DNA of 3,133 nucleotides from a plasmid: assembly GCF_057098645.1 (NCBI RefSeq), contig NZ_JBXSPU010000007.1. One strand, 5' to 3'. The position numbers and the translations under genes were made by a program. Positions within the stretch are counted from its first letter, which is position 1; every line of letters starts with the position of its first letter. The notes under the pieces are model-generated. The model did not search any database and was not told the DNA's origin. It worked only from the letters and a program-made list of their open reading frames with translations. Of the stretch, positions 1-3,133 are shown one piece after another.

Positions 1-300
1 GATTGTATTGTTTATCGCATTACGCAGAGCAACCTCAATCATCTGGACAAGACAAAAAAAATCGCCAGACAGATCTTGGTAGGCAACGTATGCCCCAACC
101 TTTTCTTGATCAGTAGCGCACCCAAGAAATGTTTCATAGAAAGATAATCTTGGTACAGAAATTGAGCTAATTAAACTTGTTGTATCCATGAAAACTCACT
201 TATCTCTTTACTATGAATATTTTTCAGACTACCATTACAACATTCGAGGAGCAGGCGAACTACCGTTTTTCTGTGTACCTCTAGAGCGTAAAATATAACA

Positions 301-331
301 AAAAAGCCCACTACAGAGTGGGCTTTTTTGT
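301..331. terminator. Bidirectional intrinsic terminator (A-tract / GC hairpin / T-tract)
   Basis: Seen in sequence: A-run 301-306, 8-bp stem agcccact (306-313) pairing with agtgggct (318-325), 4-nt loop acag, T-run 325-330. A-tract upstream and T-tract downstream mean it can terminate on either strand; it would end a minus-strand transcript coming from mobC/cer. Confidence 0.65.
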
Positions 332-430
332 TATATTTATCTATATGAAACAACCAGTTATAGTTATTGTTTCATAATAAGAATTGAATACTCTTCACAA
401 TCCACAACATCAGAAAATACTTTGCTGCCA

Positions 431-458
431 ATTTACCATAACTCCCCTTACGCGCACC
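431..458 (-). other. XerC/XerD site-specific recombination core (cer/dif-like multimer resolution site)
   Basis: Reverse complement of 431..458 reads GGTGCGCGTAA-GGGGAG-TTATGGTAAAT, i.e. 11-bp XerC arm, 6-bp central region, 11-bp XerD arm. The XerD arm is identical to the one I recall for ColE1 cer, and the XerC arm is one mismatch from E. coli dif as I recall it. It sits in a roughly 290-bp non-coding gap of a ColE1-type plasmid. Confidence 0.75.
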
Positions 459-558
459 GCTAAAACGCGCTGAACGCGATTCTGCCGCAAACACCGCAAA
501 AAGAGATGTTTTACCCAGTGAAAACCGGAAAAATGCGTCAGGACCGTTTTCAGCTCAC

Positions 559-572
559 TGCATAGCTATGCA
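559..572. repeat. Perfect 14-bp palindrome TGCATAGCTATGCA; candidate accessory (ArgR-box-like) element of the cer-like site
   Basis: Perfect palindrome seen in sequence, centred about 100 bp on the XerC-arm side of the core. This is where cer-type sites carry accessory sequences bound by ArgR/PepA. Assignment as an ARG box is inference; the half-sites (TGCAT) differ from the TGAAT consensus. Confidence 0.35.
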
Positions 573-647
573 TGAAAGTGAATGGCGATCGGTTTGGGGC
601 CTTACGGCGTTCATACCGTCTGTTTTCGACAGTTTCTCTCCGGGAAG

Positions 648-971
648 CTAATCTGCCATAAGCCTGGATAACAGGGCCCGGTGATACTCCGTAATAGCGA
701 TCAGCACCTCCGCATACTCTCTGTCCCCGACACGCTTGCCGTCGATAAAGAGTTTTTTCTGTAACGCCCCCAGTCTCATAACTTCTTTCAGTACCCGATC
801 ATCAGTCAGTGAGTTAACTTTCTTACCGAGAGCTGCCGCCCGTAAAAAACCGGAAACGGTCTTGCCGCATTCAGCAGCCCTTTTTCTGATTTCCTGGTCT
901 TCTTCTGCCGTCAGACGAACAGGGCGACTGATAGCCCGCCTGCGCGTATTACTTCCACTTCGTTTTGTCAT
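648..971 (-). CDS. mobC: MobC-family relaxosome accessory protein (ribbon-helix-helix N-terminus), 107 aa
   Basis: From track ORF 648..1061 (-). Preferred start is the internal ATG at 969..971 (MTKRSGSNTRRR...), preceded by GGAG 9 nt upstream on the minus strand. The stretch RPVRLTAEEDQEIRKRAAECGKTVSGFLRAAALGKK, followed by DDRVLKEVMRLGALQKKL, fits the MobC pattern (RHH beta-strand plus two helices, then the conserved leucine-rich helix) as I recall it. The track start at 1061 would lie inside the oriT inverted repeat. Confidence 0.7.
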   Translation of the reverse strand: MTKRSGSNTRRRAISRPVRLTAEEDQEIRKRAAECGKTVSGFLRAAALGKKVNSLTDDRVLKEVMRLGALQKKLFIDGKRVGDREYAEVLIAITEYHRALLSRLMAD

Positions 972-1255: not shown

Positions 1256-1450
1256 ATGAACAAGCAGCAGCAAACCGCACTTAACATGGCAAAATTCATA
1301 AAAAGCCAGAGCCTGACGCTGCTCGAAAAACTGGACTCACTCGATGCTGATGCACAGGCCGCCATGTGTGAGAAACTGCACGAACTCGCAGAAGAACTCC
1401 AGAACAGCATACAGACACGCTTTGAATCGGAAAGTGGCACCGGGGAATAA
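1256..1450 (+). CDS. rom: Rom/Rop (RNA one modulator), 64 aa, ColE1 copy-number control protein
   Basis: Track ORF MNKQQQTALNMAKFIKSQSLTLLEKLDSLDADAQAAMCEKLHELAEELQNSIQTRFESESGTGE aligns along its length with pBR322 Rop as I recall it (MTKQEKTALNMARFIRSQTLTLLEKLNELDADEQADICESLHDHADELYRSCLARFGDDGENL). GGAG lies 11 nt upstream of the ATG; size and position next to a ColE1 origin are as expected. Confidence 0.93.
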   Translation: MNKQQQTALNMAKFIKSQSLTLLEKLDSLDADAQAAMCEKLHELAEELQNSIQTRFESESGTGE

Positions 1451-1700: not shown

Positions 1701-2056
1701 GCTCCGCCCCCCTGACGAGCATCACAAAAATCGACGCTCAAGTCAGAGGTGGCGAAACCCGACAGGACTATAAAGATACCAGGCGTTTCCCCCTGATGGC
1801 TCCCTCGTGCGCTCTCCTGTTCCTGCCTTTCGGTTTACCGGTGTCATTCCGCTGTTATGGCCGCGTTATCTCATTCCACGCCTGACACTCAGTTCCGGGT
1901 AGGCAGTTCGCTCCAAGCTGGACTGTATGCACGAACCCCCCGTTCAGTCCGACTACTGCGCCTTATCCGGTAACTATCGTCTTGAGTCCAACCCGGAAAG
2001 GCACGACTTATCGCCATTGGCAGCAGCCACTGGTAACTGATTTAGAGGAGTTAGTC

Positions 2057-2196: not shown

Positions 2197-2200
2197 TTTA

Positions 2201-2229
2201 AGATTACGATGGGCGCGATATGAACTCAA
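2201..2229 (-). promoter_or_regulatory. RNA II (primer) promoter: -35 TTGAGT (complement of 2224..2229), 17-bp spacer, -10 TAATCT (complement of 2201..2206)
   Basis: Minus strand reads cTTGAGTtcatatcgcgcccatcgTAATCTtaaaaacgaaaaaacc, matching the pBR322 RNA II promoter arrangement (TTGAGA, 17 bp, TAATCT) as I recall it. Confidence 0.65.
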
Positions 2230-2299
2230 GGAAATCCGCAATTAAATTATAAAAGTTTGTGGATTAATGGAAAAACTGATGTGAATCAGCTATTTATCC

Positions 2300-2328
2300 T
2301 TAAGATTTGATGTCAGATATGGTATAAT
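2300..2328 (+). promoter_or_regulatory. Candidate sigma70 promoter with extended -10 (TGgTATAAT 2320..2328; -35 TTAAGA 2300..2305, 17-bp spacer)
   Basis: Perfect TATAAT with TG at the extended -10 position, seen in sequence, in an AT-rich intergenic block. Predicted start at about 2335, pointing rightward at the small ORF and palindrome. Confidence 0.45.
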
Positions 2329-2401
2329 TAACCATTCAAATAGATGGAATAAAAAGTCAACGCTGCCATTAGAACGGCATAAGAAATAGAGGATTATGAA
2401 A

Positions 2402-2545
2402 ATGAATACTAAAGTTCTTTTTGTGAAAAAAGCCTTGAAATCAATTACTTGCGCAATTCTTTCGCTCTTACCGGCTTTAAGTCGCGCAGTAACAGAGTTA
2501 CGTAGCCTTTCGGCTGCGCGACTTAAAGCCGGTAAGAGCTTTTGA
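2402..2545 (+). CDS. Hypothetical small basic protein, 47 aa (49 aa if started at ATG 2396); not on the ORF track
   Basis: Shine-Dalgarno AGAGGA (2388..2393) is 8 nt before ATG 2402. Translation MNTKVLFVKKALKSITCAILSLLPALSRAVTELRSLSAARLKAGKSF, TGA at 2543..2545. Both arms of the perfect 26-bp inverted repeat lie inside the ORF, so it may instead be the 5' part of a structured non-coding RNA. No homolog recognised. Confidence 0.3.
   Translation: MNTKVLFVKKALKSITCAILSLLPALSRAVTELRSLSAARLKAGKSF
2464..2539. repeat. Perfect 26-bp inverted repeat (arms 2464..2489 and 2514..2539) with 24-nt spacer, followed by TTTTG
   Basis: Left arm gctcttaccggctttaagtcgcgcag; the right arm is its exact reverse complement. 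The spacer contains a small secondary hairpin (agcc-tttc-ggct, 2504..2515). Seen directly in sequence. Confidence 0.9.
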
Positions 2546-2569
2546 TTGTATCACATTTTTCCTTAAAAG

Positions 2570-3133
2570 TCAACCGGCTACCTTAAGCTCCCTGCACTTA
2601 ATCCTCCCTATAATCCCCATAACATACTCTATCGTGCAGCGTTCATAAAAGCGCCTATCGTGCCCAATAAACTCAATAAGTTCCTTTTTCTCGTTAGAGA
2701 CGATACTCAAGGCATTCATTAAAAAATTGAACTCTTTCAACATATTATTTATGGCTTGACTATGCGACTTGCAGTGGTGTTTTTTCCAAATAGGCTCATG
2801 GTGAAAAAGTCGATTCCTAAACAAAAGAACTTTATGAAACTCGTCAAACAACGCTTTAACCTTCATATCCCCCCCACCCAAAGGATTCTTCGCATGAGGA
2901 AATGTTTTTGCCTTGTTCTCTGGAGTCCAGATGTAGCACGGCCTTTGCGTATCCCTATATGGGGCATCTAACATATAAACCCAAAAGCCAAAGGTTAGAC
3001 GGCAAATAACATCATCATCCGTATACCTTACGCCACACTCATCTAGCGCTTTTTGTTTCGCATTTAAAACAAGATCCTGAGATTTCTTTGTTTGAGGTAT
3101 AGAGTCGTACCAAGCAGGCCCATGATTAGCTTT
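2570..3133 (-). CDS. Abi_2 (AbiD/AbiF-like) abortive-infection family protein with HEPN-type Rx4H motif; C-terminal 187 aa, N-terminus beyond the window
   Basis: Minus-strand frame is open from the window edge (3133) to TGA at 2570..2572; the track ORF 2570..2974 is its internally initiated part. Motifs: LTFGFWVYML, and FRNRLFHHEPIW matching the Abi_2 hallmark R-N-x-x-x-H-H-x-x-(L/I)-W, which contains the HEPN Rx4-6H signature. AT-rich codon usage differs from the backbone. Family call is from motif memory. Confidence 0.65.
   Translation of the reverse strand, partial: KANHGPAWYDSIPQTKKSQDLVLNAKQKALDECGVRYTDDDVICRLTFGFWVYMLDAPYRDTQRPCYIWTPENKAKTFPHAKNPLGGGDMKVKALFDEFHKVLLFRNRLFHHEPIWKKHHCKSHSQAINNMLKEFNFLMNALSIVSNEKKELIEFIGHDRRFYERCTIEYVMGIIGRIKCRELKVAG

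What the first reader, a model, noticed from the sequence alone, without database searches (positions are those of the whole stretch)
1..420. AT-rich left edge: possible gene ends, a bidirectional terminator and a 10-bp inverted repeat
The + strand frame 1 is open from the window edge to TAA at 145..147 (48 codons), which could be the C-terminus of a gene entering from the left. A competing minus-strand ATG at 40..42 reads MIEVALRNAINNTI out of the window. A 36-codon + strand ORF (188..298, no SD) ends 3 bp before the terminator hairpin. A perfect 10-bp inverted repeat (345..354 and 368..377, tatgaaacaa and ttgtttcata) sits just past the terminator and may be an operator. None can be resolved without flanking sequence, but the composition suggests this is cargo contiguous with the right-edge Abi block on a small circle.
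Basis: seen in the sequence. Interest (0 to 1): 0.2.

Follow-up and report, generated by a model that had tools for sequence, protein, structure and literature searches.

The report
Abi toxin gene start plus small RNA
The AT-rich left edge of this small circular E. coli plasmid holds the first 63 codons of a phage-defence (AbiD/F-type, PD-T4-5-like) toxin gene that wraps around from the right edge, and next to it an unannotated, conserved small-RNA gene on the opposite strand that is probably the toxin's RNA partner.

Summary

The 36-codon ORF actually covers a conserved element (242–292, + strand) that folds into a covarying hairpin. A σ70-like promoter precedes it and the 291–338 terminator follows it. 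The element lies on the strand opposite the gene in all 12 distinct close-homologue loci examined, matches no Rfam family and is annotated in no public record. By analogy with AbiF and its ncRNA, it is probably the toxin's RNA antitoxin or regulator, here in an inverted orientation. That function is inferred, not shown.

The cargo ends at 430, next to a cer-type Xer site.

The parts
1..189 (-). Codons 1-63 (ATG 189..187) of the 250-aa PD-T4-5-like AbiD/F HEPN protein. It includes the invariant residues S11, R14, L15, Y18, E52, R56 and N57.
   Evidence: frame open and in phase across 1|3133. (annotated as WP_016249639.1, 753 nt). (PADLOC PD-T4-5 match covers residues 4-229). (invariant columns).
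2570..3133 (-). Codons 64-250 plus the stop codon of the same gene. Contains the HEPN motif RNRLFHH (R169..H175).
190..241 (-). abi leader and promoter zone. The transcription start site is unknown. A possible extended -10 (TGtTGTAAT, about 242..234 on the minus strand) overlaps the -10 of the + strand RNA promoter. This is inferred by eye.
   Evidence: Read from the sequence. No site reached the scan threshold.
207..235 (+). Putative sigma-70 promoter of the small RNA: -35 TTTACT 207-212, a 17-nt spacer, and -10 TACCAT 230-235, which ends 6 nt before the conserved element.
   Evidence: It scores 8/12 here, which is weak taken alone. The same geometry recurs in the homologue loci, where the RNA-strand mean is 8.8/12 against 4.1 on the sense strand and 5.5 in shuffles.
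242..292 (+). Conserved small-RNA element: stem-loop 246-281 (13 pairs, loop 261-264), followed by the conserved single-stranded linker from 282.
   Evidence: -12.4 kcal/mol on this strand; -2.7 on the other strand; covariation; covariance model, 72.7 bits here.
291..338 (.). Intrinsic terminator extended into a perfect 22-bp palindrome. The GC core is 306-312/317-323 and the loop is 313-316. The T-run 324-329 ends the + strand RNA, and the A-run 300-305 gives a U-tract on the minus strand.
   Evidence: Rfam sub-threshold hits to terminator-containing leaders on both strands.
344..376 (.). Perfect 10-bp inverted repeat TATGAAACAA-N13-TTGTTTCATA. It is specific to this plasmid lineage and its function is unknown.
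   Evidence: It forms an 11-bp hairpin in the minus-strand fold.
431..458 (-). cer-type XerC/XerD core GGTGCGCGTAA-GGGGAG-TTATGGTAAAT. The accessory sequence (ArgR-box-like TGCATAGCTATGCA) extends to about 640. This marks the backbone/cargo boundary.
   Evidence: homology with about 700 plasmids starts at 431. (comparison with ColE1).

Best explanation
Window 1-430 is the head of a two-part abortive-infection module carried as cargo on a 3,133-bp circular ColE1-type plasmid.

(1) Shown: positions 189->1 on the minus strand encode the first 63 residues of a 250-aa AbiD/F-type, PD-T4-5-like HEPN protein. The rest of the gene lies at 3133->2570.

(2) Shown from sequence comparison: the + strand carries a conserved small-RNA gene that points away from the abi gene. 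It consists of a sigma-70-like promoter (207-235), a covarying stem-loop (246-281), a conserved linker, and the intrinsic terminator (306-329). The RNA would be about 90 nt.

(3) Inferred by analogy with AbiF/AbiFr and RCd22: this RNA is the cognate antitoxin or regulator that keeps the HEPN RNase silent until phage infection. Because the two promoters overlap back to back, the RNA promoter may also limit abi transcription.

(4) Inferred: in this lineage the terminator is extended into a perfect palindrome. It should therefore also stop minus-strand read-through coming from cer, nikA and RNAII before it reaches the toxin gene.

(5) The 10-bp inverted repeat lies between cer and the terminator. 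It is specific to this lineage and its role is unknown.
For: Circularity and the CDS.

Protein identity:
- PADLOC PD-T4-5 E 6.6e-30 over residues 4-229.
- 13 of 17 family members hit Pfam Abi_2 at E <= 0.01.
- The RNRLFHH motif and the N-terminal motifs are invariant.

RNA:
- DNA homology with loci whose protein is 67% identical starts at the hairpin, and the leader is 49/50 identical (by-eye comparison) against 74% for the CDS.
- The element is present on the strand opposite the gene in 12 of 12 distinct close-homologue loci. Four of these were not used to build the model.
- The consensus fold is -12.4 kcal/mol on the + strand against -2.7 on the gene strand.
- Across 14 distinct sequences, 98.4% of cells are paired and 5 pairs show compensatory changes. 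The covariation score is 0.297 against 0.141 in shuffles (0/500), and slid controls reach at most 68%.
- Invariant G.U pairs exist only on the + strand.
- A promoter sits at a fixed distance on the RNA strand.
- A canonical hairpin lies 3-13 nt after the element on the RNA strand in all 10 abi-linked loci tabulated, with 6-8 T in the 8 nt after the stem where the count is not confounded by A/T arm extensions.

Precedent:
- In AbiD/F systems the upstream sequence is more conserved than the gene, and the RNA is required (PMC13064643).
- The AbiF ncRNA is a type III antitoxin of about 100 nt ending in an intrinsic terminator (PMC12373285, PMC12737573).
- PD-T4-5 is a plasmid-borne relative of AbiF/D with an abortive-infection phenotype (PMC9519451).
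Against: - There are no expression data, so the RNA, its ends and its strand are all predictions.
- The window's own RNA promoter is weak (8/12, reached by 23.5% of shuffles).
- In every characterised AbiF system the ncRNA is on the same strand as the toxin gene and is co-transcribed with it. Here it is inverted.
- No match to the Rfam abiF motif.
- Four copies of the element (L022, L024, L025, L026) have no abi-like gene beside them, so linkage is not absolute.
- The covariance model finds nothing next to 46 more distant relatives at 23-39% identity.
- The covariation rests on 14 related sequences. The enlarged alignment was fitted to the model, which biases pair counts towards the structure.
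- PD-T4-5 itself was reported as a single-gene system.
Confidence: 0.68

Rival explanations
1. The conserved RNA is made on the gene-sense (minus) strand as the 5' leader of the abi mRNA, as with AbiFr, RCd22 and the abiD1 5'UTR. In that case the + strand signals are incidental.
For: In all characterised AbiD/F systems the ncRNA or structured leader is upstream on the same strand (PMC12373285, PMC13064643). On this strand the invariant unpaired A, C and U positions could be protein-contacting bulges like those described for AbiFr (PMC12737573). still finds 9 pairs, 2 of them with compensatory changes.
Against: - The sense-strand fold is only -2.7 kcal/mol.
- Three invariant G.U pairs and several G-C/G.U alternations become A.C mismatches on this strand.
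- No promoter lies between the terminator and box 1: the sense-strand mean is 4.1/12 against 8.8 on the other strand.
- On this strand the terminator precedes the element rather than following it, and its U-tract is missing in several lineages.
Confidence: 0.12
2. The + strand RNA exists but acts as a cis-antisense (type I-like) or transcription-interference regulator of abi expression. It is not a protein-binding antitoxin.
For: The RNA is encoded opposite the region upstream of abi, so any minus-strand read-through past the terminator would be fully complementary to it. In L076 the 5' end of the RNA is only 17 nt from the abi ATG, and its promoter overlaps the start codon. The -10 elements of the two promoters overlap (read from the sequence).
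Against: - No conserved promoter was found that would place the complementary region inside the abi mRNA.
- Predicted duplexes with the abi translation-initiation region are no better than shuffles.
- Strong sequence conservation of the unpaired linker and loop-flanking bases, together with orphan copies that have strong promoters, fits a trans-acting RNA better.
Confidence: 0.15
3. The two-box element is only a DNA-level promoter/operator of the abi gene, with TCTAGA as a palindromic operator. No functional RNA is involved.
For: The abi promoter must lie in or next to this stretch. Box 1 contains a CTCTAGAG palindrome. Many homologue loci carry an HTH_17 gene just upstream.
Against: - Compensatory changes at 5 pairs, with G.U intermediates.
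- A loop of variable length (3-17 nt) between invariant halves.
- The window plasmid has no HTH gene.
- The palindrome is broken in L014, L022 and L024 while the pairing is kept.
- A dedicated promoter and terminator flank the element.
Confidence: 0.05
4. One reading: the + strand ORFs (1..147 and 188..298) are real protein-coding genes.
For: Both ORFs exist. The second ends just before the terminator.
Against: - The first ORF is 70 codons stop-to-stop on the circle. It has no Pfam hit and lies antisense to a CDS whose encoded residues are conserved across the family.
- The second ORF is interrupted in the L007 lineage (by eye), and its frame is broken by spacer-length variation.
- Neither ORF is annotated in any of the records inspected.
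Confidence: 0.01

Closest known systems
AbiF/AbiFr (Prevotellaceae PbAbiF, PDB 8vz6) and C. difficile AbiFCd/RCd22: type III toxin-antitoxin systems of the AbiD/F (Abi_2) HEPN group
   Different: The RNA is on the opposite strand and points away from the toxin gene, so it cannot be co-transcribed with it. It has one hairpin rather than two abiF motifs. There is no match to Rfam RF03085. The protein is 21% identical and about 50 residues shorter. Antitoxin activity has not been tested.
PD-T4-5 (Vassallo et al. 2022, E. coli ECOR34 plasmid; PADLOC PDLC04038)
   Same: It is the best PADLOC model (E 6.6e-30, residues 4-229). It is plasmid-borne in E. coli and is described as a distant relative of AbiF/D with an abortive-infection phenotype (PMC9519451).
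   Different: The protein here is 250 aa against 314 aa. It scores 102 bits on a 309-position profile, so it is a relative rather than the same protein. PD-T4-5 was reported as a single gene, and no RNA partner was described.
Lactococcal AbiD, AbiD1 and AbiF
   Same: The same Pfam family at the family level (13 of 17 members). Weak native expression and dependence on the native upstream sequence are reported (PMC13064643).
   Different: The sequence similarity is marginal: Pfam 19.9 bits, below the 25.6-bit cut-off, and PADLOC AbiD E 0.003. The host phylum differs. The arrangement of the leader or RNA differs.
ColE1 cer / Xer multimer-resolution site
   Same: The core is GGTGCGCGTAA-GGGGAG-TTATGGTAAAT, against GGTGCGTACAA-TTAAGGGA-TTATGGTAAAT in ColE1. 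The accessory sequence and the ArgR-like box are similar. The orientation is the one in which RNAII read-through enters at the ArgR side (PMC2831885).
   Different: The central region is 6 nt rather than 8 nt. The site lies just outside the finding (431-458) and marks its boundary.

Membership tests
AbiD/F (Pfam Abi_2, PF07751) HEPN abortive-infection proteins | Match to the Abi_2 profile at or above Pfam's gathering score | tested here: inconclusive
   This protein scores 19.9 bits against a 25.6-bit cut-off, E 9.8e-4. However, 13 of 17 aligned family members match at E <= 0.01, best 1.4e-11. tblastn also hits annotated 'Abi family protein' genes, best E 5e-25.
AbiD/F (Pfam Abi_2, PF07751) HEPN abortive-infection proteins | HEPN Rx4-6H catalytic motif | tested here: met
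   R169-N-R-L-F-H174-H175 is invariant in all 17 aligned sequences. It corresponds in form to R202/H207 of AbiFCd (PMC12373285).
AbiD/F (Pfam Abi_2, PF07751) HEPN abortive-infection proteins | AbiF-like fold | tested here: met
AbiD/F (Pfam Abi_2, PF07751) HEPN abortive-infection proteins | RNase toxicity and abortive-infection phenotype | not testable with these tools
   Requires experiments.
PD-T4-5 (PADLOC PDLC04038) | Match to the PADLOC PD-T4-5 profile | tested here: met
   E 6.6e-30, 102.4 bits, residues 4-229 on profile positions 8-255 of 309. Relatives score 83-138 bits. The library has no curated cut-off.
PD-T4-5 (PADLOC PDLC04038) | Protection against T4 by abortive infection | not testable with these tools
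   Phenotype reported for the ECOR34 gene only (PMC9519451).
Type III toxin-antitoxin of the AbiF/AbiFr kind | Conserved structured ncRNA adjacent to the toxin gene | tested here: met
   The element is present in 12 of 12 distinct close-homologue loci. Covariation is supported.
Type III toxin-antitoxin of the AbiF/AbiFr kind | ncRNA upstream on the same strand and co-transcribed with the toxin gene | tested here: not met
   The fold, the G.U pairs, the promoter and the terminator U-tract all point to the opposite strand.
Type III toxin-antitoxin of the AbiF/AbiFr kind | Rfam abiF motif (RF03085) in the RNA | tested here: not met
   Not among the matches at the gathering threshold or at E <= 10 in window 1-700.
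Type III toxin-antitoxin of the AbiF/AbiFr kind | RNA binds and neutralises the toxin protein | not testable with these tools
   Inferred by analogy only.
Type I toxin-antitoxin (cis-antisense RNA) | Antisense RNA overlaps or base-pairs with the toxin mRNA | tested here: inconclusive
   The RNA is encoded opposite the region upstream of abi, but the abi transcription start is unknown. Predicted duplexes with the translation-initiation region are no better than shuffles.
Intrinsic (Rho-independent) terminator | GC-rich stem-loop followed by a U-tract | tested here: met
   7-bp GC core extended to 22 perfect pairs, with T6 on the + strand and A6 (U6 on the minus strand) flanking it. The hairpin and its RNA-strand T-rich tail are conserved in all 10 abi-linked loci tabulated.
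cer-type Xer site | 11-nt XerC arm, 6-8-nt central region and 11-nt XerD arm, with about 200 bp of accessory sequence, in a fixed orientation relative to the origin | tested here: met
   The XerD arm is identical to ColE1's, and the XerC arm matches at 8 of 11 positions. Orientation rule from PMC2831885.

The most novel reading that the evidence does not exclude
The ~90-nt + strand hairpin RNA is a previously undescribed class of RNA antitoxin for PD-T4-5-like AbiD/F toxins of Gammaproteobacteria. It is transcribed divergently from its toxin gene instead of being co-transcribed with it. If so, 'single-gene' PD-T4-5-type systems would really be two-component protein-RNA systems. The orphan copies of the RNA on chromosomes would be stand-alone antidotes, for example against addiction or against the defence itself.
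Probability: 0.35. Interest if true: 0.6.

Novelty: new variant of a known kind. Interest (0 to 1): 0.45.

Why it matters
This gene is annotated only as 'hypothetical protein' in 23 PLSDB plasmid records and in 27 of 5,426 complete E. coli genomes. The RNA beside it is not annotated anywhere.

Recognising the pair has three consequences:
- It turns a cryptic 3-kb plasmid into a mobile phage-defence cassette.
- It extends the recently established protein-plus-RNA logic of AbiD/F systems, the proposed ancestors of Cas13, to enterobacterial PD-T4-5-like genes.
- It shows an arrangement, RNA divergent from the toxin gene, that the characterised cases do not have. This affects how such RNAs should be searched for, and how these toxic genes can be cloned.

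Tried and rejected
- Small ORFs across the conserved element on either strand were rejected. The spacer length varies by non-multiples of three, and the 36-codon frame has an in-frame stop in L007.
- Rfam at gathering and at E <= 10 gave only RNAI in the origin, plus sub-threshold hits driven by the terminator. No abiF motif was found.
- NCBIfam gave no hit. PHROGs gave only a family of unknown function.
- A pattern scan of the species-representative genomes found nothing. A pattern scan of the viral contigs found nothing.
- The covariance model found no significant match next to 46 distant relatives.
- RNA-mRNA duplex prediction against the abi initiation region was no better than shuffles, and the long-duplex output was uninformative.
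- I considered an Rcd-like transcript from cer that would read through the inverted repeat into the terminator. The minus-strand fold is stable, but I could not place a Pcer promoter and the sequence beyond the XerD arm is unrelated to ColE1's, so this remains an untested idea.
- Variants within the lineage gave no information on the inverted repeat, because its arms are invariant.
- The L011 and L012 rows used wrongly guessed coordinates and should be ignored.
- H72 (a 342-aa Abi family protein on an IncI plasmid) is not the original PD-T4-5. I could not retrieve the ECOR34 locus to look for an RNA upstream of PD-T4-5 itself.

Full report
**1. What the window is.** The 3,133-base window carries a NikA-like gene (648..971, minus strand), an oriT-like inverted repeat (1024-1065) and rop (1256..1450). 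It also carries a ColE1 origin with RNAI at 2095-2195. A synthetic junction made from the last 600 and the first 600 bases is found unbroken at 100% identity in several 3,133-bp circular E. coli and Salmonella plasmid records that were opened at different positions. The window is therefore a complete small circular ColE1-type plasmid, and position 3133 is followed by position 1.

**2. The coding content of 1-189.**
- The minus-strand frame is open from ATG 189..187 down to position 1, with a TGA two codons upstream.
- It is in phase with the minus-strand frame that is open from 3133 to the stop at 2570.
- Joined, the two parts give a 250-aa protein. Public records annotate exactly this 753-nt CDS as WP_016249639.1, 'hypothetical protein'.
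- Homologues are 245-259 aa long and cover 90-100% of it.
- Seven of the 23 invariant alignment columns (S11, R14, L15, Y18, E52, R56, N57) fall in the 63 residues encoded by the finding's region.
It has no family match. It is the antisense shadow of the real gene.

**3. What the protein is.**
- Pfam Abi_2 matches below its cut-off (19.9 against 25.6 bits), but 13 of 17 family members match at E <= 0.01.
- PADLOC gives PD-T4-5 at E 6.6e-30 over residues 4-229. Relatives score 83-138 bits on the same model.
- The motif RNRLFHH (R169..H175, an Rx4H HEPN motif) is invariant.
- PD-T4-5 is described as a plasmid-borne distant relative of AbiF/D that gives abortive-infection defence against T4 (PMC9519451).
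- I file the protein as a PD-T4-5-like member of the AbiD/F HEPN group. It is not PD-T4-5 itself, which is 314 aa.

**4. The non-coding part, 190-340.**
- In loci whose protein is only 67% identical, DNA homology with the window (74% over 714 nt) begins exactly at the hairpin. By eye, about 50 nt of the leader are 49/50 identical there.
- Homologues that are 45-57% identical show the same layout: hairpin, then box 1 (TTTACRYTCTAGAGGTACACANNAAAAC), a variable spacer, then box 2 (GTTCGNNNGCTCCTCGR).
- The spacer is 3, 4, 5 or 11 nt long, so no reading frame is preserved across it. It is not a gene.
- Read on the window's + strand, the two boxes form a 13-pair stem-loop (246-281) with a consensus energy of -12.4 kcal/mol.
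- On the gene strand only 9 pairs form, at -2.7 kcal/mol. There the invariant G.U pairs become A.C mismatches.
- On the first 10 sequences, 97.7% of cells are paired against 91.8% in shuffles (0/500), and at most 68.5% when the partners are slid.

**5. Wider sample of the RNA element.**
- A covariance model finds the element at 51-74 bits, 72.7 bits in the window, where it occupies 242-292.
- It finds it at 55-70 bits in four further loci that were not used to build the model.
- That makes 12 of 12 distinct close-homologue loci. In all of them the element is on the strand opposite the gene; in the four new loci it lies 17-73 nt from the start codon.
- On 14 distinct sequences, 98.4% of cells are paired. 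Five pairs show compensatory changes (for example A-U/U-A, G-C/A-U/G.U, C-G/U-A). The covariation score is 0.297 against 0.141 in shuffles (0/500). This alignment was fitted to the model, which favours the structure somewhat.

**6. Two further tests of orientation.**
- A sigma-70-like promoter sits upstream of the element on the RNA strand in 13 of 14 copies. Its -10 usually ends 5-6 nt before the element. The mean score is 8.8/12, against 4.1 on the other strand and 5.5 in shuffles. The orphan copies L022 and L026 have TTGACT-18-TATAAT. The window's own site (TTTACT 207-212, TACCAT 230-235) scores only 8/12 and is not significant taken alone.
- A canonical hairpin lies 3-13 nt after the element on the RNA strand in all 10 abi-linked loci tabulated. 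In the six whose hairpins lack A/T arm extensions, the tail has 6-8 T in the 8 nt after the stem. By inspection, a contiguous U-tract on the gene strand is present only in some lineages, including the window's.
- The window's 236-346 + strand RNA folds into exactly these two hairpins at -43.9 kcal/mol, z = -8.4.
- The terminator's conserved job is therefore to end a ~90-nt + strand RNA. Its extension to a perfect 22-bp palindrome, which makes it bidirectional, is a feature of this lineage. It would also block minus-strand read-through from cer, nikA and RNAII into the toxin gene. That last point is inferred.

**7. What the RNA probably does.**
- Recent work shows that AbiD/F systems are protein-plus-RNA pairs. 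The sequence upstream of the gene is more conserved than the gene itself and is needed for function or to tolerate the toxicity (PMC13064643).
- AbiF is a type III toxin. Its ~100-nt upstream ncRNA ends in an intrinsic terminator, binds the HEPN dimer and blocks its active site (PMC12373285, PMC12737573).
- The window's module has the same parts: the protein fold, a hairpin RNA with its own promoter and terminator, and an upstream stretch more conserved than the CDS. The difference is that the RNA cassette is inverted relative to the gene.
- It also lacks the Rfam abiF motif. The C. difficile paper mentions no opposite-strand arrangement.
- My best reading is that the RNA is the cognate antitoxin or regulator. 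This is an inference.
- A cis-antisense or promoter-interference role is a serious alternative. In L076 the RNA's 5' end is 17 nt from the abi ATG. However, duplex predictions with the abi initiation region are no better than shuffles.

**8. Limits of the linkage.**
- Four copies of the element have no abi-like gene next to them (L022, L024, L025, L026).
- L025 lies beside a glycyl-radical (GrcA-like) gene and has a decayed terminator. L022 and L026 lie in a variable region with a CdiI-like gene. These could be remnants or stand-alone copies.
- The model finds nothing significant beside 46 more distant relatives at 23-39% identity.
- By eye, those distant loci also have a GC-rich hairpin about 120-160 nt upstream, followed by clade-specific conserved sequence. 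I did not analyse that further.

**9. The 10-bp inverted repeat.**
- A perfect repeat of this kind arises in 0.5% of shuffles of the 92-nt segment. At least one arises somewhere in 11% of shuffles of the whole window.
- The stretch 339-432 is found only in this plasmid lineage (23 records).
- The two SNPs seen in variants fall outside the arms, so there is no comparative evidence for or against function.
- The repeat is not part of the module shared with the homologue loci.
- Its function stays open. Possibilities are an extra hairpin in minus-strand read-through RNA, a protein-binding site, or nothing.

**10. The boundary of the cargo.**
- Homology with about 700 other ColE1-type plasmids starts sharply at 431.
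- At 458->431 on the minus strand lies a cer-type core, GGTGCGCGTAA-GGGGAG-TTATGGTAAAT. ColE1-like accessory sequence and an ArgR-box-like TGCATAGCTATGCA lie upstream of it.
- In each plasmid compared, the sequence becomes unrelated immediately after the XerD arm.
- The site's orientation matches the rule that RNAII read-through enters at the ArgR side (PMC2831885).
- The finding's region is thus the cer-proximal end of a ~1.35-kb AT-rich cargo block (about 2200-3133 plus 1-430; GC 0.33-0.41 in its sub-blocks against 0.51 for the backbone).

**11. Verdict.** Its + strand ORFs are not genes, and its minus-strand ATG is an internal codon. The repeat is real but unexplained. The most interesting content, a conserved and unannotated small-RNA gene paired with the toxin gene, was hidden under the 36-codon ORF. 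The plasmid and the CDS are already in databases, and the protein-plus-RNA principle is known. The RNA family and its divergent orientation appear to be new, as far as these tools and libraries show.

Noticed in passing
window 313-316; L003 2317-2320; L020; L021: The terminator's 4-nt loop occurs in both orientations among otherwise near-identical plasmids: ACAG in the window and L020, CTGT in L003 and L021. This looks like a flip of the loop between the perfect 22-nt arms.
   Followed up: partly
window 2300-2545: A sigma-70-like site (TTAAGA-17-TATAAT with TG, 2300-2328) precedes a small annotated ORF (2402..2545, 47 aa). That ORF contains a perfect 26-bp inverted repeat (2464-2489/2514-2539) followed by TTTTGATTG. 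It is convergent with the abi gene and is not shared with the homologue loci. It may be another small RNA or a terminator rather than a protein gene.
   Followed up: no
window 431-458 compared with L010, L011, L012, L013: In every ColE1-type plasmid compared, the plasmid-specific cargo starts immediately after the XerD arm of cer. The central region differs between plasmids (6, 7 or 8 nt). This is consistent with module exchange at cer.
   Followed up: partly
window 372-971: The mobilisation region is reduced to a NikA-like gene (annotated mobA or nikA) plus the oriT-like repeat. No relaxase gene is present, yet MOB-suite types the plasmid as mobilizable (MOBF).
   Followed up: no
window 1927-2040: RefSeq records annotate a 37-aa 'replication initiation protein' inside the RNAII/origin region. 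This is probably an annotation artefact.
   Followed up: no
L022 2399-2450; L026 6478-6529; L025 5787-5840; L024 212-262: Orphan copies of the RNA element occur with no abi-like gene beside them. L022 and L026 have near-consensus promoters and sit in a variable region with CdiI-like and HNH-like genes. L025 lies between a GrcA-like gene and a membrane-protein gene and has a decayed terminator.
   Followed up: partly
L028, L030, L031, L034 (Vibrio, Aliivibrio, Rheinheimera); L027, L050 (Burkholderiales), about 100-200 nt upstream of the gene: Distant relatives (34-39% identity) have their own clade-specific conserved stretch next to a GC-rich hairpin upstream of the gene. For example, UCGGCGAA-loop-UUCUCCGA in L050 against UCGGCGUU-loop-AACUCCGA in L027. 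This hints that a partner RNA is general in this family.
   Followed up: partly
L076 524-601 (Lonepinella chromosome): The 5' end of the RNA element is only 17 nt from the abi start codon, so the RNA promoter overlaps the start of the coding sequence. There is little room for an abi leader.
   Followed up: no
L004-L009, L018, L074, L077, L078: gene directly upstream of the hairpin: In most other contexts, a small HTH_17/AlpA-like gene lies just upstream, co-directional with abi and separated from it by the terminator. The window plasmid lacks this gene.
   Followed up: no
NZ_CM132959.1 3379909-3380338 and NZ_CM132951.1 (E. coli strain 44 chromosome): A 100% identical copy of window 1-430 is placed in a chromosome record in two assemblies of one strain. 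This is either an integrated plasmid or an assembly artefact.
   Followed up: no
L003 (NZ_CP148481.1, 4,750 bp): This variant of the plasmid carries a duplicated rop-origin segment: two rop genes and two copies of the origin-region ORFs.
   Followed up: no
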